Translations under genes and position numbers: made by a program | Shown: positions 375 through 24,000 of the stretch, piece after piece | How the letters are laid out: each line of letters opens with the position of its first letter | How positions within the stretch are numbered: position 1 is the stretch's first letter | NCBI GenBank assembly: GCA_050633705.1 | Contig: JBOEGZ010000006.1 | Coordinates: forward strand, 148,554-172,553 | Direction: 5' to 3' | Length of the DNA stretch: 24,000 nt | Source: Hyphomicrobiaceae bacterium | Lineage (GTDB): Bacteria > Pseudomonadota > Alphaproteobacteria > Rhizobiales > Hyphomicrobiaceae | The notes under the pieces: model-generated | The model's database searches: none | Seen by the model: the letters and a program-made list of their open reading frames with translations, nothing else | What the model was told of the DNA's origin: nothing

Positions 375-1013
375 CTATGGAATAGACAACGCTGCGCCGC
401 GATGGAGTGCGTTATCAAACTTATCGCCAGGCGGCACTTTCTGGCGCAAAACTGACGATGGCAACGTATGCAGCACCTGCGTAATGGCACGGCGATTTTG
501 TGCCGCGCACTGCTGAGCGTCACAATATGCAATGGGTTCTGCGCGTCCCCTAATCTCAATGACAATCCGTTCGGGTGAGATTCCCTCGTCAATCAAACGC
601 TGTTGTACAGCCCTGGCACGTTCACTGGCCAAGCGGGTGTTATCATCAATTGAACCTGGATCATCTGCATGTCCGATAATTAAGGCACCAAAGCTTGGAC
701 GCAATTTCATCCAACGGGCTTGCGCCGACAAAACGATGCGTGCATTCGACCCTAGTCTTGAGCTTCCTGAACCGAAAAAGACCCGATCACCAGCCGTGCG
801 CCGCAGGTGTTGCGTCAGACGCTGGCTCACAGCGTGACGGTACTGGCTGACAAAATTGTCTGCTTGTTTGATGCCAACGCGGGTTATATGCGCTGTGTTT
901 TCAGTATAGGCCTGAGCATTGGCGACATCAGCCAACAGACGGCCACTTGTTACTCCGCCCATGAACGTTGAAACAGCAGCAACCGCGCACGCCGCAATGC
1001 TCATTTTCAGCAT
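375..1013 (-). CDS. Periplasmic OmpA-like (Pal-paralogous) peptidoglycan-binding protein, apparently not a lipoprotein
   Basis: The C-terminal half (RVFFGSGSSRLG...IIGHADDPGS...RLASERARAV...PIAYCDAQQCAAQNRRAITQV) aligns by eye with the adjacent Pal (IVYFSTDSSDL...IEGHSDERGT...ALGARRAASV...PVAVCNDISCWSQNRRAQTVL). A hydrophobic N-terminus (MLKMSIAACAVAAVSTFMGG...ANAQA) looks like a Sec signal. The start is uncertain: ATG at 1013 or 1004, or GTG at 1106, and none has a clear SD. Confidence 0.7.
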   Translation of the reverse strand: MLKMSIAACAVAAVSTFMGGVTSGRLLADVANAQAYTENTAHITRVGIKQADNFVSQYRHAVSQRLTQHLRRTAGDRVFFGSGSSRLGSNARIVLSAQARWMKLRPSFGALIIGHADDPGSIDDNTRLASERARAVQQRLIDEGISPERIVIEIRGRAEPIAYCDAQQCAAQNRRAITQVLHTLPSSVLRQKVPPGDKFDNALHRGAALSIP

Positions 1014-1315
1014 GAGACGAGACTGTTGGAATGACGATCGACGGCTCACTTTTTGTACGCCTTTTCTGGTGACCGCGACGGCCGGGCTGTTCGCCGCCAA
1101 AATCACCAGTTATTGCGGCCAAACTTTGCTGGTAAAACGATTGTTTCGTGCCAGGACATCTGCTCACAGGCCAACGATCAAAGGCGCCTTACACCGGCAC
1201 CAACACGGACACCGACATATGTGATTTAAGTGAAAACGAGAGAGGCCTGGACCAATGCCTCGCGCCAACTAATACCTACCGCACCGATGATGCCCCAAAA
1301 AAAGGCCTCGTCGGT

Positions 1316-1834
1316 TTACTGGGAGCCTGCGACGCGGTTGTTTAAAACCGTCTGCGCTCTGCGGTTTTGCGACCAGCATGAAATGTCGTTACAGACAGCA
1401 ACGGGGCGTTCTTTACCGTATGAAATCGTCCGCAATCGAGAGGAGTTGACCCCGGTGCGAGCCAAAAACGTCCGTACGGAGGCTGCACGTCGTGCACCAA
1501 GCGCGATGTTATACTCACGCGTGCCACGCTCATCGGAATGGCCTTCAATTGTAATCGTGTATTGAGGATATTGCCCAAGCCATTGCGCTTGCTTGCGTAG
1601 CGTTGCCTGTGCCTCTGGGGTCAAGTCGCTTGAATCGGTCGAGAAATAAACAATATCGCCAACGTTCACGCTAAAATCACGCCGCGTTCCCGGCGTTGCC
1701 GCAACGCCACCGCTACCCTGCCCAAGCTCCGCGCCTGGTTGAGCCTGTTTGTTGGCACACCCTTGCAGACCAAGCATCGCGACAGCGACAAGGCCAGCCG
1801 TTGCAATCGAAGCAATATTCCGGGACCTCAACAT
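1316..1834 (-). CDS. pal: Peptidoglycan-associated lipoprotein Pal
   Basis: Signal peptide with lipobox LQGC. OmpA-like C-terminal domain with GHSDERGTREYN...LGARRA...NRRA. SD AAGGGG lies 6 nt upstream of the ATG at 1834. Confidence 0.93.
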   Translation of the reverse strand: MLRSRNIASIATAGLVAVAMLGLQGCANKQAQPGAELGQGSGGVAATPGTRRDFSVNVGDIVYFSTDSSDLTPEAQATLRKQAQWLGQYPQYTITIEGHSDERGTREYNIALGARRAASVRTFLARTGVNSSRLRTISYGKERPVAVCNDISCWSQNRRAQTVLNNRVAGSQ

Positions 1835-3202: not shown

Positions 3203-4549
3203 TCAACGCAGCAGGGGCGACCACGCCGGATCCGAGGCAAAAGACGGTGTCCGCACAACCCTCTCGTTATAACCGGTGAGATCGACCGAAAGGATACGAG
3301 GACCTCCATTCGCACCCTGTGCCTCGCGAAAGAACATTAATACGCGACCGTTTGGAGCCCACGTCGGGCCCTCGTTGTGATAGCCCTCGCTAAGTATGCG
3401 TTCCCCACTGCCGTCCGGACGCATCACACCAATCAGAAAGCGTCCACTCGTTTGTTTGGTGAACGCGATATAGTCACCCCGCGGCGACCACACCGGAGTT
3501 GAATACCGTCCATTTCCAAAACTGATCCGGCGCGTACCTGATCCATTGGCATTCATCACATAGAGCTGTTGTGAGCCTTCGCGATCGGATTCAAAAACAA
3601 TCTGGCGCGCATCGGGCGAATAAGACGGTCCAGTATCAATGGCGCCTGGAACGTTGGACAGCTGCCGTTTTTGCCCCGATGCCAAATCCAATTCAAACAA
3701 ACTAGACCCGCCACCTTGTTGCAAGCTCATGACTATTCGCTGTCCGTTTGGCGAAAAGCGCGGCGCGAACGTCATTCCCGGAAAATCACCAACAACACGC
3801 CGTTGGCCAGTTTCCAAATTCATCAAATAGACCCGCGGTCGCCCGTTGCCGTATGACATATAAGTGATCTCTTGACGCGTCGGACTAAACCGGGGCGTCA
3901 ACACCAGGTCTCCCCCACGTGTCAGCAGGCGAACGTTTGCACCGTCCTGATCCATTATGGCAAGACGCTTTACGCGCTTGGCCTTTGGTCCCGTTTCATC
4001 GATAAACACAACACGTGTATCGAAATATCCTTTTTCCCCGGTCAGCCGTTCATAGATCTGATCTGCGATGAGATGCCCGATGCGGCGCCAATTTGTTGAC
4101 GCGGATGAAAATCGTTGCCCCGCAAGTTGTTTTCCCGTCGCAACGTCCCACAATCGAAACTCTGCTGAAACCCGACCATTGCCGCCAGGCACGACACGAC
4201 CAACAACCAGAGCATCGCTGCGAATGGCGCGCCAATCCGGAAAACGGGGGGCCTTGTTGATATTTGTGACCTGCTCAAGAAATGAATCTCGCGCCAACGG
4301 CCGAAACAAACCGGAATTGCGCAAGTCAGACGTAATGACGTCGCTGATTTCGGCTGCAAGCTTTGGATCAGCTCCGACAAAATAGGGAATGGCGATGGGA
4401 ATAGGTGCGATCGTGCCCTGGCGTTGCGTTCCTGTAAGACCACCCCCGTCTTGGGCCAAAACAGGTTGAAAATTCGCAACAAACAGAGCCAATGCAGCCA
4501 GTACAGTGGCTCCAATATGCCTTGCGAAATTGGTCGAACGAAGCGTCAT
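3203..4549 (-). CDS. tolB: Tol-Pal system beta-propeller protein TolB
   Basis: Signal peptide ([33 protein letters not shown]). Reiterated propeller motifs are present ([50 protein letters not shown]). It lies downstream of tolQRA. The ATG at 4549 is preferred over the longer ORF-track start at 4627. Confidence 0.95.
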
Positions 4550-4667
4550 TGCGGTTCCCAAGCTTGCGAATCCTTCAATCTTAAATCTCAGCCGAACACA
4601 TCCCGTCAGCAGAATGCAACTCAGCAATTACCTTGTCATACCCGACGAGAGCTGAATTTAAGCTGAA

Positions 4668-5708
4668 TTAGAGCATTTCACGCGGATCGAAGTTCCAAGT
4701 AATGGTACTCCATGATTGATATTTGTCCGGGGGAAGGCGGAACGGTGAACATTGCTTGACCGCACGCACGGCAGCTTCAGAAGCGATGCGATATACTGCA
4801 CCACTGCCTGGATTTTTCACGCGCGGCTCTCCGTTAAGGCTGCCATCAGGATTGAGACGCCACTGCAAGGTGACGACGACCGTTTCAACCCCGCCGCCAC
4901 CGCCAGGCAATCGCCAACAATCGCGCAATTGAGAGGCCACGGCCCCCTTCAACAGATCTTCTTCACGCGCAGAAAGCGTATTATCCCGCCCCCTGCGTTC
5001 ACCCGCGGTTGGCCCGTCATAATCGGTTGGCTGAGATGGATTGCGCGAAGCTCTGGGGGCTCCGCGCTTGTCGGGACTTTTATCAATCAAAGCTGCAATT
5101 CGGTCAGCATCAAACTGCTTTTTCTTCTTCGCCGCTGCAGCTTTGCGCCGCTTCTCGGCAAGTCGTTTTTTACGCAACGCCTCAGCTTTGCGCTTTTTCT
5201 CCCGGTCGCGCTTTTTCTTTGCCTCCGCCTTTTTCTTGGCTTCAGCTTTTTTCTTTGCCTCTTCAGCAGCCTTTTGCTTCTTAGCCTCTTCGTCGGCTTT
5301 CTTTTTTGCAGCCAACCGAGCGGCGGCTTCTAGTGCAGCCTTTTGTTTTGCAATTTCAGCAGGTGTTGGCCCCGGAGCAGGTGCGGGCTCTTCTTTGGGT
5401 AGGGCCGCAAGCTTATCCGCGATCGGGTCTGGTTCTGGTGCGGGCGGTTCAGGTGCCAGAACCGGTTTGGGCTTAGGCGCTTCTTTTTTCGAAATCTCGG
5501 GCTTTGGCTCATCTTTAGCCTTCGCCTCAAGCTTTTTGGCGTCCGGGTCACCTTGTTTCAAACGCGTTAGTTCAGATGGCGTAATAATCGCAACCGTAAT
5601 GGCCTGTGTTTCTTCCAGGTTCAACGGCTTGGTCGACTGCATGGACACAAAAGCCCATACTAGCAACCCACCGTGCAACAGAAGTGAAACAACAAAACCA
5701 AACGGCAC
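4668..5708 (-). CDS. tolA: TolA-like envelope-spanning protein
   Basis: N-terminal TM helix (FGFVVSLLLHGGLLVWAF), a Pro-rich segment, a long Lys/Ala/Glu-rich helical region, and a C-terminal TolA/TonB-like domain. GTG start with GGAGG 9 nt upstream. It sits between tolR and tolB. Confidence 0.88.
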   Translation of the reverse strand: MPFGFVVSLLLHGGLLVWAFVSMQSTKPLNLEETQAITVAIITPSELTRLKQGDPDAKKLEAKAKDEPKPEISKKEAPKPKPVLAPEPPAPEPDPIADKLAALPKEEPAPAPGPTPAEIAKQKAALEAAARLAAKKKADEEAKKQKAAEEAKKKAEAKKKAEAKKKRDREKKRKAEALRKKRLAEKRRKAAAAKKKKQFDADRIAALIDKSPDKRGAPRASRNPSQPTDYDGPTAGERRGRDNTLSAREEDLLKGAVASQLRDCWRLPGGGGGVETVVVTLQWRLNPDGSLNGEPRVKNPGSGAVYRIASEAAVRAVKQCSPFRLPPDKYQSWSTITWNFDPREML

Positions 5709-5713
5709 GTGCC

Positions 5714-6163
5714 TTAACCTCCATCCTCAACTTCAGTGACAAGTGATAGTTTTGTAAAGCCACCCGCGTTAATACGGCCCATGACCCGCATAATCGTGCC
5801 GTAGGAAACGCCTGTGTCGCCACGAACAAAAATTGTTTCATCAAAACCATTTTTTGCAATGGCTTTTAACTTTGCTGGAAGTTCATCCAGTGGAACAGAT
5901 GTTTCACCGATGTAAACATCGCCATTAGCTTTGATCGAAATGGACAGCGGCTCCCCACTCGATTGCAATTGCTTGCCTTGTGCCTTTGGCAACTCAATGG
6001 GTACGCCTCCCGTCATCAATGGGGCAGCAACCATGAATATAATCAACAACACCAACATAACATCGACAAACGGCGTAACGTTGATCTCGCTCATTGGGGC
6101 ATGTCGCGGGCGTCGGCGTCGGCGTCCGTCGTTACCTTGTGGTGCTTTGATACTGGCGCCCAT
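5714..6163 (-). CDS. tolR: TolR (ExbD/TolR family) biopolymer transport protein
   Basis: Single TM helix with the conserved Asp (TPFVDVMLVLLIIFMV) and a periplasmic ExbD-like domain. It lies directly downstream of tolQ. The start is ATG 6163 (MGASIK...) or TTG 6196. Confidence 0.92.
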   Translation of the reverse strand: MGASIKAPQGNDGRRRRRPRHAPMSEINVTPFVDVMLVLLIIFMVAAPLMTGGVPIELPKAQGKQLQSSGEPLSISIKANGDVYIGETSVPLDELPAKLKAIAKNGFDETIFVRGDTGVSYGTIMRVMGRINAGGFTKLSLVTEVEDGG

Positions 6164-6228
6164 CGTTCGGGTCCCATCTTGTTCGATCAACCTCAATGCA
6201 CTATGGCGCGAGGTCTGATTGCATTTGC

Positions 6229-6945
6229 CTAACCTCGGGTGTCAATCTGGCGAGAGACTATGGCTGAAAACTCATCTGAAAACGCTTCAAGTCGATGGCT
6301 TATTTGCGCGGAGTCTGCCTGAAATTTGTTATAAAAAACAACCGCCGGAATTGCGGCCAACAATCCAAGAGCTGTTGCAAACAAAGCTTCAGCGATACCA
6401 GGAGCGACGACAGCGAGATTGGTGTTTTTCGACACGGCAATAGCCTGGAAACTGTTCATGATCCCCCAAACGGTGCCAAATAGGCCAACAAAGGGCGCCG
6501 TTGAGCCAACGGTTGCCAAAAACAACAACCGACGATCCAAGCGTTCCATCTCACGGCTGGAGGTGACATCCATCACCTTTTCAACTCGCATTTGTATGCC
6601 GCCAAGCGCTCGGATCTGACCTTCTACAGATCGTTTCCATTCACGCATTGCAGCAACAAATAGCGCAGCGATGGCGATCGTTTTCCCACGCGACAAGTTG
6701 GCGTACAGCTCGTCCAAAGACTGCCCCGACCAAAACAATTGCTCAAACCGGTCGGCTTCAATTCTTGCGCGTCGAAAAGCAAACAGCTTCTCGACAATAA
6801 TGGCCCACGACCAGACAGAGGCGAGCAAAAGCCCAACCATCACGAGCTGCACAACGATATGCGCTTCTAAGAAGAGTTTTAGAAATGAAAAGCCGCCTGC
6901 ATTAACGACTGAAAGGTTTTGGTTCAGCAATACTGCCAAGGTCAT
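6229..6945 (-). CDS. tolQ: TolQ (MotA/TolQ/ExbB proton-channel family)
   Basis: Three TM segments. Motifs TAPFVGLFGTVWGIMNSF and IAEALFATALGLLAAIPAVVFYN are present. The context is ybgC-tolQ-tolR-tolA-tolB. Confidence 0.95.
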   Translation of the reverse strand: MTLAVLLNQNLSVVNAGGFSFLKLFLEAHIVVQLVMVGLLLASVWSWAIIVEKLFAFRRARIEADRFEQLFWSGQSLDELYANLSRGKTIAIAALFVAAMREWKRSVEGQIRALGGIQMRVEKVMDVTSSREMERLDRRLLFLATVGSTAPFVGLFGTVWGIMNSFQAIAVSKNTNLAVVAPGIAEALFATALGLLAAIPAVVFYNKFQADSAQISHRLEAFSDEFSAIVSRQIDTRG

Positions 6946-7364
6946 GGTGATATCCGCACGGTGTAATCCACGTTGAGCCTATTGCGCATTGTCCGTTTAC
7001 AGCCAGTTCGCACGTTCACGGAAAAGCACATCATCCTTAAATGCTGGAAGGGCACGAATTTAAGACAGCACCAACACCGATCCATTTTAGACCCCGTTGC
7101 CACTGCCAATTTTCGCATCTCAGATGAGAGGTCTGATACCCCCCGCTCCCTGGTCACGCAAACACGCTTTGCCCGACCCCCATCACGCGCACTGTAAGTT
7201 GTTGCGGTCCAATATGACCAAACGAGGGCTCAAAAGCCCCTCTATTAGGGCGGCTTATCCCCTATTTTTGGGCAATTTGAATGGCACAATGGTCAATTCG
7301 GACCATCTTTGTGTCGCGCAGACATCTTTGCCGCACGCGACAATGGCCAAATACCCGATCAAAT

Positions 7365-7865
7365 TCAGCCGTTTCGAGCTTTGAAGGCGCGGCGAATCTC
7401 TTCGCCAATGCGTAAAGGTTTACCCGACATAGAGATCAACACCACCGTCACGTCGGCTTCACAAATTCTCCGACCTGAGCGCTTGATTTCCTGCAACAAG
7501 GTTAAACTGGCACCGCCAATTTCCTTGACCGAAGTTTCGACCGTCAACACTTCATCGATCCGTGTTGGTCGGTAAAAATCGAACGACATTCTGCGAACAA
7601 CGAAAGCTGCTGGCTCACCACCATCTCGGCCATCAATCAAAGCCCCGTGGTTTGAACCAAGCAAACGCAGAAAGTCAGACCGTCCCCGCTCGCACCACCG
7701 CACATAGGACGCGTGATAAACAACTCCGGAAAAGTCTGTGTCTTCGAAATAAACCCGGACAGGCAATTGATGGCGTCGTTCGCCGTCCTCATCGGTTATC
7801 AGCCGCCCAGACAAGTCCGGCCATTCAGCTTCAGCGTCTTCGGGAGTGCTTTGTGTATCGCTCAT
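7365..7865 (-). CDS. ybgC: Tol-Pal-associated acyl-CoA thioesterase (4HBT/YbgC family)
   Basis: Hot-dog fold signature VRVYFEDTDFSGVVYHASYVRW. It occupies the position upstream of tolQ. Confidence 0.85.
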   Translation of the reverse strand: MSDTQSTPEDAEAEWPDLSGRLITDEDGERRHQLPVRVYFEDTDFSGVVYHASYVRWCERGRSDFLRLLGSNHGALIDGRDGGEPAAFVVRRMSFDFYRPTRIDEVLTVETSVKEIGGASLTLLQEIKRSGRRICEADVTVVLISMSGKPLRIGEEIRRAFKARNG

Positions 7866-18354: not shown

Positions 18355-18539
18355 GCTCGAACCAAACCCACACACGCTTAAATGCGCTTTTGCCAAATCA
18401 TCGACGTGAAAAATTCGGCCAAATATACCAAATCCATTGGCTGAATACGTTCCTTGCCTAATCGCAATTCGATCGTCGCGATTTGGCCGTTTTCGCCGCA
18501 GATATCCTGAGGGGTATAAGATCTCTTGATCTGGCAGCG

Positions 18540-19271
18540 ATGATACTTGAAGGAATGAAACCTGTGACGTCGGACATCGACCCAGACTGCCTGCTTTATC
18601 TTATCGTCGAAGCCAACGAAGGTTCCGCGACACAACAAGCTTTGCATGCCGCACTTTCGGCCGGCCCGGTAACATCCGTACTCATTACACCTTTACCCGA
18701 CACATCTTTGAACGAACAACTCGTTCGCCCCCTGGTCGCCGCCTGCCAGGATGATGATGTTGTCGTTTTAATTGCTGGTGATGCAGCCCTTGCCAAGCAA
18801 GTTGGCGCAGATGGCGTTCACATTTCCTGGCGCGAAGATGTTGTTGCAGCATTTCAAGAGGCCCGCAACACACTCGGCCATGATGCGGTGATCGGTGGTG
18901 ATGCCGGACGATCGCGTCATACGGCCATGGAACTTGGTGAGGCCGGTGCCGACTATGTTGCGTTTGGTATTCCTTCACACGTAAAGGATCGAGAAACTGC
19001 AGAAAACCGTCAACGCGAACTGATTGCATGGTGGGCTGAAATCTTCGAGCCAGCATGTGTTGCCTTCACTTCGAATACGCCTGACCTCGCAGCAATTGGC
19101 AATCTTGTTGAGGACGGCGCGGATTTTGTATCCGTTACAATCAAGCCAGGACAAACAGCAGACGACATCTCAAACTACATTCGCGACGTATTACAGACCC
19201 TTGAACAACACAGCGAAATCCGCAATGCAGCCCTAGCGGAGGCTGAAACATCGGCCGGAGCAAAAACATGA
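18540..19271 (+). CDS. Thiamine-phosphate synthase-like (ThiE/TenI superfamily) protein
   Basis: The TIM-barrel ThiE-like pattern is present: LYLIVE..., ...SVLI..., VVVLIAGDAALAKQVGADGVHI, ...ELGEAGADYVAFG. The start is uncertain (TTG 18483, ATG 18540 or ATG 18555). The stop overlaps the next gene's ATG as ATGA. Confidence 0.75.
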   Translation: MILEGMKPVTSDIDPDCLLYLIVEANEGSATQQALHAALSAGPVTSVLITPLPDTSLNEQLVRPLVAACQDDDVVVLIAGDAALAKQVGADGVHISWREDVVAAFQEARNTLGHDAVIGGDAGRSRHTAMELGEAGADYVAFGIPSHVKDRETAENRQRELIAWWAEIFEPACVAFTSNTPDLAAIGNLVEDGADFVSVTIKPGQTADDISNYIRDVLQTLEQHSEIRNAALAEAETSAGAKT

Positions 19272-20353
19272 CTTGGTGGCGTTCTTCAACATATGCCCGC
19301 GCAGCAATGGCTCTTAGTCAGCTGAGCTTAGCCCTGCATAGCGCGCAAGCCGCGGCAAACATAAGCTCTCAGACTGTGCAAGAGAAAAAGGCCCAGGATG
19401 AGAGCGCTAACCTGCGCGTTGCCCGTAAAGGGACCAGCATTCATGAGAAGAAAAACAATGCAAACAGTGGTGCCAAATCGAAATCAGGTGAGAACAACGA
19501 TGCTGCTTACTTCGCCTATGACCAAGGGCAATATTTAACAGCTTTGAAGCTTGCCAAAGAAGCGGCGCAAAGAGGAAGTGCAGCGGCCCACACTCTGGCC
19601 GGTCGCATCTACGCCGAAGGCCGCGGTGTACCACAAGACTTCAAGAAGGCAGCCGACTGGTATGCACGCGGCGCCAAGCTCGGCGATGTGAATGCACGTT
19701 TTTCTTACGGTCTCTTGTTGGTTGAAGGGCGCGGCGTCAAAAAAGATTGGTCCAAAGCTGCCGAAATGTTTGAAAGGGCCGCGATGACAGGACATGCGGC
19801 GGCAAATTACAATCTCGGCCTGCTCTTTTTGTCTGGCAAAGGCAAACCAGAAAATCTCTATCGTGGCGCCAAACACATCGAGTATGCCGCACAAAAAGGT
19901 ATCCCTGCCGCGCAATACGAACTCGCCGGACTCTATCAATCCGGCACTGGCGTCCCCAATGACGCACTCCAAGCCTCAACGTGGTTGGCGCGGGCGGCAA
20001 ATGCCGGCATGGGGTCGGCTCAATTTGAATACGGAGTTCTGCTGCTGCGTGGCTTGGGTTTGAAAAGCGATGCGCCGCGCGCCATTGAATATTTGCTTAT
20101 GGCAGCCAAGCAAGGGGTGGCTGGTGCGCAAAACCGCTTGGCCCACGTTTACGCAGAAGGTGCCGGTGTCGACAAAAACCTCAAAGAGGCGGCAAAATGG
20201 TCGTTTATTGCCAAATCCAATGGGATGACCGACCTGTCTATCGACCAGAAACTGGTAAAACTCTCAAAAAAAGACCGCCAAGCCGCAGAAGTATTGGCGA
20301 GTGAATGGACCGAGAAAAACAAATTCCACGTCCCCGACGCCGCACTGCGCTGA
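19268..20353 (+). CDS. Secreted Sel1-repeat (TPR-like) protein
   Basis: N-terminal signal-like segment (ARAAMALSQLSLALHSAQAAA). Six consecutive repeats of about 36 aa follow the pattern A..L...Y..G.GV..D...A..W...AA..G. Confidence 0.85.
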   Translation: MTWWRSSTYARAAMALSQLSLALHSAQAAANISSQTVQEKKAQDESANLRVARKGTSIHEKKNNANSGAKSKSGENNDAAYFAYDQGQYLTALKLAKEAAQRGSAAAHTLAGRIYAEGRGVPQDFKKAADWYARGAKLGDVNARFSYGLLLVEGRGVKKDWSKAAEMFERAAMTGHAAANYNLGLLFLSGKGKPENLYRGAKHIEYAAQKGIPAAQYELAGLYQSGTGVPNDALQASTWLARAANAGMGSAQFEYGVLLLRGLGLKSDAPRAIEYLLMAAKQGVAGAQNRLAHVYAEGAGVDKNLKEAAKWSFIAKSNGMTDLSIDQKLVKLSKKDRQAAEVLASEWTEKNKFHVPDAALR

Positions 20354-20570: not shown

Positions 20571-21362
20571 ATGGCTGCTTCTGCACTTCTGACTGTGATG
20601 ATCAACGCTGCGCGCAAAGCCGGGCGCAGCCTGTCGCGTGATTTCGGCGAAGTCGAAAACCTACAGGTCTCGGTGAAGGGGCCGGGTGACTTTGTGTCGG
20701 CAGCAGACGATCGTGCCGAAGAAATCATCTTTCGCGAACTGCGCAAAGCCCGTCCGACCTATGGCTTCTTGATGGAAGAAAGCGGTGTTTTCGAAGGCGA
20801 AGATAAAGATCAACGTTGGATTGTTGACCCACTCGACGGCACAACGAACTTCCTTCACTCAAATCCATTGTTTTCCATTTCAATCGCTTTGGAACGTCAT
20901 GGCCAACTAGTGGCTGGTGTTGTCTACAACCCCATCACCGATGAATTATTTACGGCTGAAAAAGGAAAAGGGGCATTCGTCAACGATCGCCGCCTGCGTG
21001 TCGCCGGCCGACGAAATGTCTCCGAAGCCCTCATCACAACCGGCATTCCTCATCGTGGTCGAGGTGAGCATGACGGCTTCATCAAAGACATGAAAACAGT
21101 GATGTCGGAAGTGATTGGCATTCGGCGCACAGGCTCTGCTGCCCTAGATTTGGCATGGACAGCAGCCGGCCGCTTTGATGTGTTTTGGGAACGCGCGCTT
21201 AAACCCTGGGATGTTGCCGCTGGTATTGTGTTGATGCGTGAGGCTGGTGGACAAGTGATCGACATTGACGGCGGCGACGATCCTCTCGAAAGCGGCAATA
21301 TTCTCGCCGCCAACCCGCAAATGCTGAAAGCTTTCGCCCCCCTCGTCGCGCGCAAAAAATAA
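20571..21362 (+). CDS. suhB: Inositol monophosphatase family protein (SuhB-like)
   Basis: IMPase motifs WIVDPLDGTTNF and PWDVAAG, with typical length and N-terminus. Confidence 0.9.
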   Translation: MAASALLTVMINAARKAGRSLSRDFGEVENLQVSVKGPGDFVSAADDRAEEIIFRELRKARPTYGFLMEESGVFEGEDKDQRWIVDPLDGTTNFLHSNPLFSISIALERHGQLVAGVVYNPITDELFTAEKGKGAFVNDRRLRVAGRRNVSEALITTGIPHRGRGEHDGFIKDMKTVMSEVIGIRRTGSAALDLAWTAAGRFDVFWERALKPWDVAAGIVLMREAGGQVIDIDGGDDPLESGNILAANPQMLKAFAPLVARKK

Positions 21363-21530
21363 GTCGACGGATTGAGACACATCCACCCATCAAAAAAGCA
21401 CGACTTGGAAATTTTACCGCCAGGGCGCCCCGGAGCCTGGAAATTCGGGCAGCGTCCCAGTCAAAATGTGTATAACATGACGTTTTCGGGCAACACTTAT
21501 GCCAGATGCATGATTTGCTTCACGTGGGCA

Positions 21531-21585
21531 CGATGTTGCCGGTTTCCGCTGTCATAGGCTTCGACTAGATTGTAAGGCAACATCG
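21531..21585. promoter_or_regulatory. Perfect 10-bp inverted repeat about 50 nt upstream of the motA-like gene, either a 5'-leader structure or a protein-binding site
   Basis: CGATGTTGCC (21531-21540) and GGCAACATCG (21576-21585) are separated by 35 nt. The stem is extendable by CGG/CGU pairs after one mismatch. Confidence 0.3.
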
Positions 21586-21635
21586 CGCTGCAAATAAGCA
21601 TCGCGAGCATAATGTTGAAGCCGGAGAATTTTTGG

Positions 21636-22727
21636 ATGGCACGAAAGCGACACTCTGAACCGGCAACCGTGGGTTTTCACCGGTCGCTCACGCCACCGGG
21701 CTTATTCCTGGTGCGCATGTTGATATTCCTGACCCTCGTCGGTTTTCTGGCCGCCATCCTGCACGAACGGCTGATCGTCTCGGTCATGACAAACCCTGGC
21801 CTCAACGGGCTTATTCTCGCGGTTTTGTTTTTCGGTATTCTCTACACGTTCCGCCAGGTCATTCGGCTCTATCCAGAAATTCGTTGGGTCAATGCGTTCC
21901 GCATTGCTGACCCCGGTTTGTCGATTTCCCACCAACCTGTCCTGCTGGCGCCAATGGCCACGATGCTGCGCGACCGGACCGGCGCGATTTCGCTCTCAAC
22001 AATGTCAATGACATCGATTATGGAATCGATTGGCTCTCGCCTCGACGAAGCGCGCGATACCGGACGCTACATGGTCGGGCTTCTCGTTTTTCTCGGTTTG
22101 CTTGGAACCTTTTGGGGCTTGCTGGCAACGATCCAATCGGTTGGCGATGTCATTGGTTCTATCGATTCCAAAGCCGACAACTCTGGAGCAATATTTGGGG
22201 ACCTAAAGGCAGGCTTGTCAGCGCCTCTAACGGGCATGGGCACAGCCTTTTCATCATCCCTTCTTGGTCTAGCTGGCTCCCTCATACTTGGCTTTCTCGA
22301 ATTGCAAGCCAGTCATGCCCATAACCGTTTTTATAATGAGCTTGAAGAATGGCTGTCCGGTATTACTGAGCTGACACCAGCTGGTGGTGTTAGCGATTCA
22401 TCTAGCGACAATCTCAATCGTCAACTCGGTGCAACGCTTTACGACATGCAGCGCGTATTGGAAGAACTCAACATAAGGCTCGGAGAGAACGCGGGGGCTG
22501 GTGGGTTATCTGCCGGTGGAGATGGAGGAGCGGCACAAACAGCGGCAATCAACCAGACTGAAAACTCGGTTCGTGAATTGGCGTCTGGCGTCAATGAACT
22601 CGTCGGACAAATGCGTGCAGAACAGCAAGTTGTCCGTGAATGGGTCGACGAACAAGCCAACCAGCAAAGCGAAGTAACAAACGTTCTTAAAAATCTCGCG
22701 GGCAACATCCAACGCCGGGGGAGCTAA
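21636..22727 (+). CDS. MotA/TolQ/ExbB-family proton-channel protein with 4 TM helices and a ~140-aa C-terminal tail
   Basis: The TM3 motif VFLGLLGTFWGLLATIQSV parallels TolQ PFVGLFGTVWGIMNSFQAI in this window. The TM4 segment MGTAFSSSLLGLAGSLILGF parallels IAEALFATALGLLAAIPAVVF. The topology is MotA-like: two N-terminal TMs, a ~70-aa loop, then two more TMs. GGAG lies 9 nt before the ATG at 21636; the ORF-track ATG at 21612 is also possible. Confidence 0.85.
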   Translation: MARKRHSEPATVGFHRSLTPPGLFLVRMLIFLTLVGFLAAILHERLIVSVMTNPGLNGLILAVLFFGILYTFRQVIRLYPEIRWVNAFRIADPGLSISHQPVLLAPMATMLRDRTGAISLSTMSMTSIMESIGSRLDEARDTGRYMVGLLVFLGLLGTFWGLLATIQSVGDVIGSIDSKADNSGAIFGDLKAGLSAPLTGMGTAFSSSLLGLAGSLILGFLELQASHAHNRFYNELEEWLSGITELTPAGGVSDSSSDNLNRQLGATLYDMQRVLEELNIRLGENAGAGGLSAGGDGGAAQTAAINQTENSVRELASGVNELVGQMRAEQQVVREWVDEQANQQSEVTNVLKNLAGNIQRRGS

Positions 22728-22730
22728 AAA

Positions 22731-23759
22731 ATGGCTCGCGGACGCGCCCGACGCGGCACAGATTATGGTGAATTCTGGCCTGGATTCGTTGACGTTCTAT
22801 CAACGTTGCTGCTGGTGGTTACATTTCTGATGTCGATCTTCATGTTGGCACAGCACTTTGCTTCCCAGGAAGCCTCTGGCAAGGAAACCGCCTTGCAACG
22901 GCTCAACCGACAAATCGCCGAGCTGACTAGCATTCTGTCGCTTGAACGCGGCAAAACAAAATCCGCACAAGACCAGTTGGCAGAACTGCAAGCGTCTCTT
23001 TCGACATTGCAAGCAGAAAACACAAAACTCTCAGGCTTCGCCTTATCTGGCGATGAACGCGCCAAGTCCGATGCCAAAAAAATCGCAACTCTTTCAACCG
23101 AACTCGACAAATCGAAAGAAGTATCCAACGAAGCGTTAGCCAAAGTTGACCTTCTCAACCAACAACTGTTGGCGCTACGTCGACAAATGGCAGCATTGAA
23201 CGATGCGCTCGATGCAGCAGATAAGAAGGATCAAGATTCCCAAACGCAAATCAAAGATCTGGGAACGCGCCTCAATGCAGCACTGGCGCGTCAAGTTCAA
23301 GAACTAAAGCGCTATCGCTCAGACTTCTTTGGGCGCCTGCGAGAACTCTTACGCGATCGTAAAGACATTCGCGTCGTCGGCGACCGCTTTATCTTTCAAT
23401 CCGAAGTGTTGTTCCCGTCAGGCCAAGCACAGATGACATCAGAAGGTCTGCAAGCTCTTGATCAGGTTGCTCAGGCAATTGTTGAAATAAGTCGTGATAT
23501 TCCAAATGAAATAAATTGGGCCCTACAGGTTGATGGGCACACAGATATTCGTCCAATTTCCAGTTCGCAGTTTCCTTCCAACTGGCACCTATCAACCGAG
23601 CGCGCGATCTCGGTCGTGCAATATCTTAACAGCCAAGGCGTGCCAGCAAAACGGCTCGTTGCGGCCGGCTATGGTGAATTTGCCCCGCTTGATACCGGCA
23701 CCAGTGACGATGCGCTGCGCAAAAACCGCCGGATCGAATTGAAGCTGACGAATAGATAA
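22731..23759 (+). CDS. MotB-like protein: N-terminal TM helix with conserved Asp, ~160-aa coiled coil, C-terminal OmpA-like peptidoglycan-binding domain
   Basis: WPGFVDVLSTLLLVVTFLM carries Asp21 (codon 22791-22793), matching TolR FVDVMLVLLIIF. A heptad-rich segment spans roughly residues 45-210. The C-terminus reads VDGHTDIRPISSSQFPSNWHLSTERAISVVQYL...AAGYGEFAP...NRRIELKL. SD GGGGGAG lies inside the end of the upstream gene, with a 3-nt intergenic gap. Confidence 0.88.
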   Translation: MARGRARRGTDYGEFWPGFVDVLSTLLLVVTFLMSIFMLAQHFASQEASGKETALQRLNRQIAELTSILSLERGKTKSAQDQLAELQASLSTLQAENTKLSGFALSGDERAKSDAKKIATLSTELDKSKEVSNEALAKVDLLNQQLLALRRQMAALNDALDAADKKDQDSQTQIKDLGTRLNAALARQVQELKRYRSDFFGRLRELLRDRKDIRVVGDRFIFQSEVLFPSGQAQMTSEGLQALDQVAQAIVEISRDIPNEINWALQVDGHTDIRPISSSQFPSNWHLSTERAISVVQYLNSQGVPAKRLVAAGYGEFAPLDTGTSDDALRKNRRIELKLTNR

Positions 23760-23794
23760 AACTTGGCGTTTACCACGTCTGACAAATTCTCAAT

Positions 23795-23829
23795 GGACTG
23801 GCCAAATAGCGGTGGCAGTCCTTTTGATT
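23795..23829 (+). terminator. Rho-independent terminator after the motB-like gene
   Basis: GGACTGGCC (23795-23803) pairs with GGCAGTCC (23814-23821) with one bulge, followed by TTTTGATT. Confidence 0.65.
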
Positions 23830-24000
23830 GAGCCCCTCTGCGCCCTTTTCCCAAATGGTTGAGCCTTAAATGAACGGCCTATGAATGCGGCGTTCAAAAG
23901 CAATTCAGGCACGTAACATCATATTGCCTCTCACAGAACACAAAGTTTAAACCTCAAGGGAAAAGACAATGTCCTCGATTTCAAAAATGCAAACAGGCGC

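What the first reader, a model, noticed from the sequence alone, without database searches (positions are those of the whole stretch)
21636..23829. Orphan MotA/MotB-like stator pair with coiled-coil elaborations, not linked to flagellar, Tol or TonB genes
This tightly coupled two-gene module has a 3-nt gap, and the SD of the second gene lies inside the first. It starts after the housekeeping suhB gene and ends at its own terminator.

**A subunit.** It keeps the channel motifs visible in the window's TolQ (GL.GT.WG in TM3 and the G/A-rich TM4). Its topology is MotA-like with four TMs. It also carries a ~140-aa C-terminal tail (22305-22724): two helical segments split by the Gly/Ala linker GENAGAGGLSAGGDGGAAQTAA.

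**B subunit.** It keeps the proton-relay Asp (D21 in FVDV, identical to TolR FVDV) and a canonical OmpA-like domain. About 160 residues of heptad-rich coiled coil (roughly 22863-23361) are inserted between the two. MotB, TolR and ExbD have no such spacer.

**Interpretation.** The motifs and domain order are seen directly. That the pair forms a 5:2-type ion-driven motor is inference from family knowledge of MotAB, TolQR, ExbBD and ZorAB. I could not assign it to any described stator system. At about 0.15 nm per helical residue the B spacer could span around 20 nm or more, which is on the scale of the periplasm. That suggests a mechanical tether or reach function.
Basis: partly seen in the sequence, partly recalled or inferred. 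Interest (0 to 1): 0.75.

Follow-up and report, generated by a model that had tools for sequence, protein, structure and literature searches.

The report
Uncharacterised wall-anchored proton motor gene pair
Two tightly coupled genes encode what looks like a small proton-driven membrane motor, tied to the cell wall by a long rigid rod; the pair sits at the same housekeeping spot in many related soil and water bacteria, and I found no study of its function.

Summary
Gene A (21636-22727, 363 aa) and gene B (22731-23759, 342 aa) are 3 nt apart, and B's ribosome-binding site lies inside A.

A has four membrane helices and a MotA/ExbB-type channel core. It scores best against ZorA profiles (E 2e-14) and reaches no flagellar MotA, TolQ or ExbB model. 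Its 140-aa tail is helix, flexible Gly/Ala linker, then a conserved terminal helix.

B has a MotB-like membrane helix with an invariant Asp, about 165 residues of heptad coiled coil, and a MotB/MotS-type peptidoglycan-binding domain. B belongs to the curated but unstudied NCBIfam family PRK09039.

The order suhB-A-B recurs in more than 150 loci, including Sinorhizobium meliloti. No flagellar, Tol, Ton or Zorya partner genes are linked.

New here: the Asp-to-wall-domain spacing is 173 residues in 74 distinct Hyphomicrobiales-set sequences. Elsewhere it ranges from 158 to 383, and 19 of 29 distinct lengths differ from 173 by exact multiples of 7. That marks a continuous rod of about 24-56 nm, too long for a simple perpendicular membrane-to-wall spacer.

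Most likely it is a wall-anchored, proton-driven 5:2 motor with an unknown housekeeping output. Assembly and function were not tested. It is a new variant of a known kind.

The parts
21363..21635 (+). Intergenic region between suhB and gene A. It presumably holds the promoter and 5' UTR.
   Evidence: No sigma-70-like site and no Rfam family. Sequence read.
21636..22727 (+). Gene A: 363-aa ZorA-like MotA/ExbB-superfamily channel subunit.
   Evidence: ORF; start fixed by homologues. PADLOC ZorA1 E 2e-14. Pfam MotA_ExbB 15.7 bits, below the gathering score; 14 of 16 family members hit it at E<=0.01.
21702..21863 (+). A: TM1 (residues 23-45) and TM2 (residues 54-76).
   Evidence: Hydropathy; AlphaFold2 helices 21-52 and 54-90.
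21864..22070 (+). A: conserved cytoplasmic domain between TM2 and TM3 (residues 77-145), with YPEIRWVN, LLAPMA and RLDEARDTGRY.
   Evidence: Invariant columns.
22071..22304 (+). A: channel core. TM3 (residues 146-168, GLLGTFWG, T158), an acidic periplasmic loop, and TM4 (residues 203-223, AFSSSLLGLAGS).
22305..22724 (+). A: acidic cytoplasmic tail (residues 224-363). Two heptad helices, a Gly/Ala linker (residues 281-302, 22476-22541), and a conserved terminal helix (..QMRAEQQVVREWVDEQANQQ..).
   Evidence: Heptad scan; alignment. Tail length shows no mod-7 constraint. Net charge is -10.
22717..22723 (+). Shine-Dalgarno GGGGGAG for gene B, inside the 3' end of A.
   Evidence: Sequence. The A-to-B gap is 0-6 nt in most loci, with a mode of 3.
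22731..23759 (+). Gene B: 342-aa PRK09039-family peptidoglycan-binding stator-type subunit.
   Evidence: NCBIfam NF006545, 447 bits against a cutoff of 372.
22776..22850 (+). B: single TM helix (residues 16-40) with invariant Asp21 (codon 22791-22793), preceded by an Arg-rich cytoplasmic N-terminus.
22851..23348 (+). B: periplasmic coiled-coil rod (residues 41-206). One heptad register runs from residue 41 to about 165, followed by a +4 shift.
   Evidence: Heptad scan; AlphaFold2 helices 17-101 and 107-206; mod-7 length conservation across the family.
23349..23756 (+). B: MotB/MotS-type OmpA-like peptidoglycan-binding domain (residues 207-342).
   Evidence: Pfam OmpA E 3e-15. PDB MotS 9ljk E 4e-24. 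Foldseek 9ljl E 2e-11, TM-score 0.78.
23795..23829 (+). Weak terminator-like hairpin followed by UUUU.
   Evidence: Sequence. Fold z-score -0.5; not found by the consensus scan.

Best explanation
A and B form a proton-driven stator-type complex of the 5:2 kind, with five A subunits around two B subunits. It is conserved as a core-genome two-gene operon after suhB.

**Shown**
- A carries a MotA/ExbB-type channel core that is closest to ZorA.
- B carries a MotB-like transmembrane helix with an invariant Asp and a MotB/MotS-type peptidoglycan-binding domain.
- These two parts of B are joined by a continuous heptad coiled coil whose frame is conserved across the family.
- The pair is strictly co-inherited and translationally coupled.

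**Inferred from the MotAB, TolQR, ExbBD and ZorAB structures**
- The two B helices sit inside an A pentamer.
- Protonation and deprotonation of the Asp drives A to rotate around B.
- B is held still by its wall-binding domain at the far end of a rigid rod of about 24 nm.

**Inferred about the output**
- The likely output is on the cytoplasmic side. Each A subunit ends in an acidic tail whose conserved terminal helix hangs on a flexible linker and could engage an unknown partner.
- This would parallel ZorAB, where the A tail transmits the signal.
- The rod is much longer than the membrane-to-wall distance. It would therefore act as a long tether, or as a strain sensor between the inner membrane and the wall.
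- That points to an envelope housekeeping or envelope-sensing role rather than motility or phage defence.
For: **Family placement**
- A: all 16 diverse members hit ZorA1 and ZorA3 profiles (best E 1e-16), and 14 of 16 hit Pfam MotA_ExbB. The TM3 motif is shared with the window's TolQ.
- B: D21 is invariant. The wall-binding domain matches MotS/MotB by sequence (E 4e-24) and by fold (TM-score 0.78). ZorB matches over 227 columns.

**Coupling**
- The gap is 3 nt with an internal Shine-Dalgarno site.
- A is followed by B in every locus with enough flank.

**Rod**
- Heptad score is 0.48 against 0.25 +/- 0.04 for shuffled sequence, with one register across the AlphaFold2-predicted break.
- The Asp-to-RYRS[DE]FF distance differs from 173 by exact multiples of 7 in 32 of 44 sequences and in 19 of 29 distinct lengths (p 4e-10). 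Most of the rest fall at +3 or +4.

**Tail**
- Three heptad segments are present, but tail length shows no mod-7 constraint, which indicates a flexible linker.

**Housekeeping context**
- The synteny gap / fba / thiE-like / Sel1 / (efp) / suhB / A / B holds across Hyphomicrobiales, including S. meliloti.
- suhB-A-B also holds in 80 more distant metagenome loci.
- No third gene on the same strand is conserved.
Against: - No multimer model or experiment was available, so the 5:2 assembly is an analogy.
- The A monomer model is poor (pLDDT 61.7) and has no significant Foldseek match in the PDB; the best is MotA at E 0.12.
- Two A-family profiles, one of the whole protein and one of the channel core, reach no solved 5:2 motor by sequence.
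- The window's A is below Pfam's gathering score (15.7 against 22.9).
- No cytoplasmic partner or phenotype is known.
- A rod of 24-56 nm has no precedent among described stators, and its geometry in the periplasm is unexplained.
Confidence: 0.55

Rival explanations
1. Periplasmic force transducer. The same motor core is present, but the useful work is done in the periplasm. B would combine the roles of TolR (axle), TolA domain II (long helix) and Pal (wall binding). It would pull or twist the wall, or position wall-remodelling factors along the rod.
For: - The rod is rigid and frame-conserved.
- The conserved rod segments at both ends could be docking sites.
- In Hyphomicrobiales the pair lies two or three genes from an RgsF-like Sel1 protein. 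RgsF is an essential polar-growth factor in S. meliloti.
Against: - No periplasmic partner gene is conserved next to the pair.
- The Sel1 gene is not linked in the more distant loci.
- The conserved terminal helix of A's tail would be left without a role.
Confidence: 0.2
2. Passive envelope tether. B simply staples the inner membrane to peptidoglycan, and A is a membrane chaperone or a vestigial channel with no ion-driven movement.
For: B has a canonical wall-binding domain and a long structural rod.
Against: - The Asp and the channel motifs of A are invariant or nearly so across about 45%-identical relatives. This is unexpected for a vestigial channel.
- Strict A-B coupling.
Confidence: 0.1
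3. Spare flagellar stator. This is the reading implied by the NCBI name 'flagellar motor protein MotA'.
For: - B's wall-binding domain is most like MotS, MotB and MotD.
- A has a four-TM, MotA-like topology.
- Names given by sources.
Against: - No NCBIfam MotA model hits A at E<=1.
- B is far below the MotB, MotD and MotS cutoffs (113 against 283).
- No flagellar genes occur in any of about 160 loci; the linkage is to suhB and glycolysis genes.
- The cytoplasmic loop is only about 69 aa.
- S. meliloti has its own motA/motB elsewhere (my knowledge, not tested here).
Confidence: 0.04
4. Zorya-type anti-phage module. ZorAB would have lost its effectors or would work with effectors encoded elsewhere.
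For: A's best profile matches are ZorA1 and ZorA3. B matches ZorB1 and ZorB3.
Against: - No ZorC, D, E, F or G-like neighbours.
- The core-genome position is fixed across an order or more, unlike a defence island.
- The tail is 140 aa with a flexible linker rather than a continuous tail of several hundred residues (PMC11946911).
- ZorB has no coiled-coil rod.
- Scores are far below the NCBIfam ZorA cutoffs (17.8 against 500).
Confidence: 0.05

Closest known systems
ZorAB (Zorya anti-phage motor; E. coli ZorA5B2, PDB 8QYD; PMC11946911)
   Same: - A's channel core and the start of its tail score best against ZorA profiles (E 2e-14; 16 of 16 family members).
- The B-type subunit has a transmembrane Asp and a dimerising wall-binding domain (Foldseek 8qyd_F, E 4e-7).
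- The A subunit ends in a helical cytoplasmic tail.
- There is no obvious MotB-type plug.
   Different: - A has four TM helices and a cytoplasmic N-terminus; ZorA has three.
- The tail is about 140 aa, interrupted by a flexible Gly/Ala linker, instead of a continuous bundle of about 500 aa and 70 nm.
- B has a coiled-coil rod of about 165 aa that ZorB lacks.
- There are no effector genes, and the location is core-genome.
Flagellar stators MotAB / PomAB / MotPS
   Same: - Four-TM A topology.
- A MotB-like TM motif (F-V-D-x-L-S-x-L-L).
- The wall-binding domain is closest to MotS and MotB (E 4e-24; TM-score 0.78).
   Different: - A matches no flagellar MotA model.
- The cytoplasmic loop is short, and there is no linkage to flagellar genes.
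- A rigid 24-nm rod replaces the plug plus flexible linker.
TolQR-TolA-Pal and ExbBD-TonB
   Same: - The TM3 motif GL.GT.WG is shared with the window's TolQ, and FVDV is shared with TolR.
- The concept is similar: an inner-membrane motor coupled to a long periplasmic helix and a wall-binding OmpA-like domain.
   Different: - The three roles are fused in one B polypeptide.
- There is no TolR/ExbD periplasmic domain and no TolA/TonB partner.
- A genuine ybgC-tolQRAB cluster sits elsewhere in the same window.
NCBIfam PRK09039 (NF006543-NF006546) 'peptidoglycan-binding protein'
   Same: B is a full-length member: 447 bits against a cutoff of 372. The S. meliloti and metagenome B proteins are members too.
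   Different: The family carries only a generic name. I found no described function, and its partner A has no curated model in Pfam or NCBIfam.

Membership tests
MotA/TolQ/ExbB superfamily (Pfam PF01618), for A | Score at or above Pfam's gathering threshold | tested here: inconclusive
   The window's A scores 15.7 bits against 22.9. However, 14 of 16 diverse family members hit at E<=0.01, with a best of 1.8e-6.
MotA/TolQ/ExbB superfamily (Pfam PF01618), for A | Conserved channel helices with a G-x-x-G-T motif and a Ser/Thr-bearing last TM helix | tested here: met
   GLLGTFWG aligns with TolQ's GLFGTVWG. T158 is invariant, and F205 and S208 are invariant in the diverse alignment.
5:2 ion-driven motors (MotAB, ExbBD, TolQR, ZorAB) | Adjacent partner gene with a single TM helix carrying an essential Asp | tested here: met
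   B's D21 is invariant. The A-B pairing holds in every locus with enough flank.
5:2 ion-driven motors (MotAB, ExbBD, TolQR, ZorAB) | A5B2 assembly with the B dimer inside the A pentamer | not testable with these tools
   Only single-chain prediction was available. The monomer models had pLDDT 61.7 and 66.7.
Flagellar stator MotAB | A matches curated flagellar MotA models | tested here: not met
   No NCBIfam MotA or PomA model hits at E<=1. S. meliloti A and a distant A have no NCBIfam hit at E<=1e-20.
Flagellar stator MotAB | B reaches the MotB, MotD or MotS model cutoffs | tested here: not met
   MotD 113 bits against 283; MotS 100 against 264; MotB 66 against 301.
Flagellar stator MotAB | Genomic linkage to flagellar or chemotaxis genes | tested here: not met
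   About 160 loci show suhB upstream and no flagellar genes.
Zorya (ZorAB plus effectors) | A and B match ZorA and ZorB profiles | tested here: inconclusive
   PADLOC ZorA1 E 2e-14 and ZorB1 E 4e-18. But NCBIfam ZorA_4 scores 17.8 bits against a cutoff of 500.
Zorya (ZorAB plus effectors) | Adjacent ZorC/ZorD, ZorE or ZorF/ZorG genes | tested here: not met
   Downstream genes vary and are often convergent: ABC transporter, EAL protein, DUF1272 and others.
Zorya (ZorAB plus effectors) | Long continuous ZorA tail of hundreds of residues | tested here: not met
   The tail is 140 aa with a Gly/Ala linker, and its length shows no heptad constraint. The ZorA tail description comes from PMC11946911.
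TolQR / ExbBD | Match to TolQ/ExbB and TolR/ExbD curated models | tested here: not met
   No such NCBIfam hits for A or B. hhalign of B against TolR gives probability 1%. The true tolQ and tolR are at 5714-6945.
NCBIfam PRK09039 peptidoglycan-binding protein, for B | Full-length score above the curated cutoff | tested here: met
   NF006545, 447.3 bits against 372, covering 1-342 of 342.
OmpA-like peptidoglycan-binding domain (PF00691), for B | Pfam gathering score and MotB-like fold | tested here: met
   56.9 bits against 27.2. Foldseek MotS E 2e-11, TM-score 0.78. The DGHTD and NRRIE motifs are invariant.

The most novel reading that the evidence does not exclude
This is a previously unstudied class of housekeeping 5:2 ion-driven motor. 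It is conserved at one chromosomal position across Hyphomicrobiales and, judging by shared synteny, probably across much of the Alphaproteobacteria.

Its stator axle would be a rigid, length-tunable periplasmic rod of 24-56 nm ending on peptidoglycan. Its rotor would signal to the cytoplasm through tethered terminal helices.

In effect it would be an envelope strain or spacing sensor, or an actuator, related to the Zorya motor but recruited for normal cell-envelope physiology.
Probability: 0.3. Interest if true: 0.8.

Novelty: new variant of a known kind. Interest (0 to 1): 0.66.

Why it matters
Only a handful of 5:2 motor systems have a known job: flagella, gliding, type 9 secretion, Ton, Tol and Zorya.

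This pair would add a widespread, core-genome member with an unusual architecture: a ZorA-like ring, a MotB-like anchor and a rigid rod between them.

It is present in genetically tractable species such as Sinorhizobium meliloti, so its function can be tested directly.

The heptad-quantised rod length gives a ready experimental handle. Adding 7 residues should be tolerated, whereas adding 3 or 4 should break the rod.

The result also flags a likely mis-annotation, 'flagellar motor protein MotA', which is spread over many genomes.

Tried and rejected
- **Rgs identity.** I checked whether the pair is one of the S. meliloti Rgs polar-growth proteins (PMC7327166). It is not. Only the upstream Sel1 gene corresponds to RgsF.
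- **Sequence profiles of A against PDB chains.** The whole-protein profile and the channel-core profile reached no solved motor.
- **Helical-hairpin reading of B's spacer.** AlphaFold2 predicts a break at residues 102-106, which could suggest a hairpin. I rejected this because the heptad register is the same on both sides, and family length changes include both odd and even multiples of 7.
- **Taxon names for the distant A subfamily.** Cluster look-up returned none. The plasmid searches found only a few chromosome-sized (3.5-4.6 Mb) Sinorhizobium and Shinella records.
- **Literature.** Nine searches covered stator phylogeny, Zorya, 'ZorAB-like', PRK09039, locus tags and organism names. None found a paper on the pair. 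The stator phylogeny paper PMC12505986 and the force-transducer survey PMC12204202 do not describe it.
- **ChvI lead.** PMC3687685 reports a ChvI-bound DNA fragment inside SMc03993. It may lie in the S. meliloti A gene, but my locus-tag mapping is unverified, so I did not use it.
- **Terminator and promoter scans.** Both were inconclusive.
Full report
**1. What is in the sequence.**

Two ORFs on the + strand fill the region. A is listed from 21612, but all 33 aligned homologues begin MARKR, so the true start is 21636, giving 363 aa. B runs from 22731 to 23759 (342 aa).

A's TAA stop (22725-22727) is followed by AAA and then B's ATG. GGGGGAG lies at 22717-22723, inside A. Upstream is suhB (20571-21362).

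Downstream there is a hairpin followed by UUUU at 23795-23829. It looks like a terminator but folds no better than shuffled sequence (z -0.5), and the consensus scan did not pick it up. No Rfam family and no sigma-70-like site were found.

The window comes from a Hyphomicrobiaceae metagenome-assembled genome, with 100% matches at P0001 and P0121.

**2. What the two proteins are.**

*A subunit*
- It has four hydrophobic helices (23-45, 54-76, 146-168, 203-223), a basic N-terminus and an acidic loop between TM3 and TM4. This is the MotA-type topology.
- Pfam MotA_ExbB matches only TM3-TM4 and falls below the gathering score (15.7 against 22.9 bits). Even so, 14 of 16 diverse relatives hit it (best E 1.8e-6).
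- The strongest matches are to ZorA profiles of PADLOC: E 2e-14 for the window protein, and 16 of 16 relatives (best 1e-16).
- No NCBIfam MotA, TolQ or ExbB model hits it.
- Against the window's own TolQ, only the TM3 motif aligns (24 columns, E 8e-5).
- Profiles of the family reach no solved structure by sequence.
- The AlphaFold2 monomer is poor (pLDDT 61.7) and has no significant Foldseek match. MotA and ExbB do top the list, at E 0.12 and 0.2.

*B subunit*
- It is a full-length member of NCBIfam PRK09039, 'peptidoglycan-binding protein' (447 bits, cutoff 372).
- Its TM helix carries an invariant Asp21 in a MotB/TolR-like FVDV context.
- Its C-terminal domain is an OmpA-like wall-binding domain. 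It is closest to flagellar MotS and MotB by sequence (E 4e-24) and by fold (E 2e-11, TM-score 0.78). It remains far below the curated MotB, MotD and MotS cutoffs.

**3. The elaborations are real.**

*B rod*
- Residues 41-206 are predicted helical, with a short break at 102-106.
- They are strongly heptad-periodic: 0.48 against 0.25 +/- 0.04 for shuffles.
- One register holds from residue 41 to about 165, straight across the predicted break. A +4 shift follows.

*A tail*
- Residues 224-363 have three or four heptad segments separated by a Gly/Ala-rich linker.
- The tail ends in a highly conserved helix (..LVxQMRAEQKVVREWVDEQAxQQ..).
- The tail is acidic, with a net charge of -10. B's cytoplasmic N-terminus is Arg-rich.

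**4. Conservation and context.**

*How large the families are*
- A exceeds 8000 database relatives, and so does B.
- A has 2758 clusters at 50% identity with E<=1e-3.

*Hyphomicrobiales set*
- This set has 84 loci, mostly Hyphomicrobiaceae, plus Rhodobium, Stappia and S. meliloti.
- The gene order is gap / (pgk) / fba / thiE-like / Sel1-repeat / (efp) / suhB / A / B.
- The A-B gap is mostly 0-6 nt, and B is 342-343 aa.

*Downstream genes*
- They vary and are often convergent. An ABC transporter is the commonest, in 66 of 119 loci.
- No third same-strand gene is conserved.

*Second A subfamily*
- A second subfamily has a different terminal tail motif (..ELRxEIRLLARTIAALAEE).
- Searching metagenomes with it returned 80 loci.
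- A B-like gene is again downstream wherever the contig allows, and suhB is upstream in about half of them, sometimes with thiE-like, gap and fba.
- The B proteins tested from these loci pass the PRK09039 cutoff.
- These contigs carry no taxonomy. Calling them other Alphaproteobacteria is an inference from the shared synteny.

**5. A new quantitative result: the rod is heptad-quantised.**

I measured the distance from the TM Asp to the RYRS[DE]FF motif just before the wall-binding domain.
- In the Hyphomicrobiales-derived set it is 173 residues in 74 of 75 distinct sequences.
- In the distant loci it ranges from 158 to 383.
- There, 32 of 44 sequences, and 19 of 29 distinct lengths, differ from 173 by an exact multiple of 7 (binomial p 4e-10 on distinct lengths).
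- Most of the rest fall at +3 or +4, the classic coiled-coil stammer and stutter.
- Both odd and even multiples of 7 occur, which argues against a symmetric hairpin.

The membrane-proximal and wall-proximal rod segments are conserved, while the middle expands. A's tail behaves differently: its length varies without any mod-7 preference, as expected for a flexible linker.

The B spacer is therefore a continuous rod. At about 0.15 nm per residue it measures about 24 nm here and up to about 56 nm in relatives.

**6. How it most likely works.**

By homology with solved 5:2 motors, two B helices would sit in a ring of five A subunits. Proton flow through the A/B interface via Asp21 would turn A around B. 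B would be immobilised by its wall-binding domain.

What differs from the known systems:
- The anchor is a rigid rod about 2.5 to 6 times the inner membrane to peptidoglycan distance (about 9 nm in E. coli, as quoted in PMC11946911). It cannot be a simple perpendicular spacer. It must lie obliquely, acting as a long tether or strain gauge.
- The rotor's output is a set of conserved terminal helices on flexible leashes, not a continuous ZorA-like bundle.

I favour a ZorAB-like logic, in which an envelope-coupled motor signals to the cytoplasm, used here for housekeeping. A periplasmic, Tol-like output is the main rival.

The steps beyond homology are all inference. These are assembly, ion use, rotation, and the identity of the output.

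**7. Comparison with known systems.**

The pair works like a stator unit but fails the membership tests for flagellar MotAB, for TolQR/ExbBD and for Zorya.
- Flagellar MotAB: no curated model is reached and there is no flagellar linkage.
- Zorya: there are no effector genes, the position is core-genome, and the tail is short and interrupted.
- Positive membership: the pair is a member of the PRK09039 family, which has only a generic name.

The NCBI product name 'flagellar motor protein MotA' given to A in many genomes is not supported by any curated model.

**8. Literature.**

Nine full-text searches found no study of the pair. The MotAB-homologue phylogeny (PMC12505986) leaves ZorAB out of its tree, and a term search found no mention of a coiled coil or of Alphaproteobacteria. 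A term search of the survey of periplasmic force transducers (PMC12204202) also found no description of the pair, and that survey notes that more 5:2-driven systems remain to be found.

The library lacks most subscription-journal papers, so an existing description cannot be excluded.

**9. Limits.**
- No multimer prediction was possible, and the monomer models have low confidence.
- No taxonomy is available for the distant loci.
- No phenotype data were found.

Noticed in passing
window 19268-20353 (+), with 18483-19271 (+): A 361-aa Sel1-repeat protein starts 4 nt before the stop of a divergent thiE-like gene (101 bits against an NCBIfam cutoff of 218). The same gene pair sits upstream of suhB-A-B in S. 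meliloti, where by my locus-tag counting, supported by its Sel1-repeat content, the Sel1 protein is RgsF (SMc03995), an essential polar-growth and septation factor (PMC7327166). It is linked in most loci of the Hyphomicrobiales set but was not detected in the distant metagenome loci.
   Followed up: partly
window 3203-7865 (-), 375-1106 (-), 1316-1834 (-): A complete ybgC-tolQ-tolR-tolA-tolB cluster, plus two OmpA-family genes (one of Pal size), lies about 14 kb away on the other strand. The organism therefore has a normal Tol-Pal system besides the A/B pair. ruvCAB, yebC and zapA lie between them.
   Followed up: partly
window 23969-24000 (+); L085 11239-11700: A 153-aa ORF with no Pfam match starts 210 nt after B. 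In the source contig it is followed by a convergent EAL-domain gene. It is not conserved next to the pair in other genera.
   Followed up: partly
L020 10160-10777 (-) and 19 other Hyphomicrobiaceae loci: A convergent protein of about 200 aa, with one TM helix and a coiled coil, sits about 80 nt after B in 20 loci. It is restricted to this family.
   Followed up: no
A-family representatives P0241-P0390: The A family splits into two classes by the motif of the terminal tail helix: ..MRxEQxxxRxW.. (as in the window) and ..ELRxEIRLLARTIAALAEE... Total lengths run from about 250 to 614 aa.
   Followed up: partly
P0335 (502 aa): One representative carries an A core followed in the same frame by a B-like rod start (RLNRQVAELSDMLSLER). 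It is either a natural A-B fusion or an assembly frameshift.
   Followed up: no
S. meliloti locus L084 13974-16111; PMC3687685: A screen for ChvI-bound DNA lists a fragment inside SMc03993. By my counting of locus tags this may be the S. meliloti A gene. The mapping could not be verified with the tools.
   Followed up: partly
L026 (JAXDQC010000003.1): A contig labelled 'Betaproteobacteria bacterium' carries an A gene 70% identical to the window's. This is most likely a mis-binned Hyphomicrobiaceae contig.
   Followed up: no
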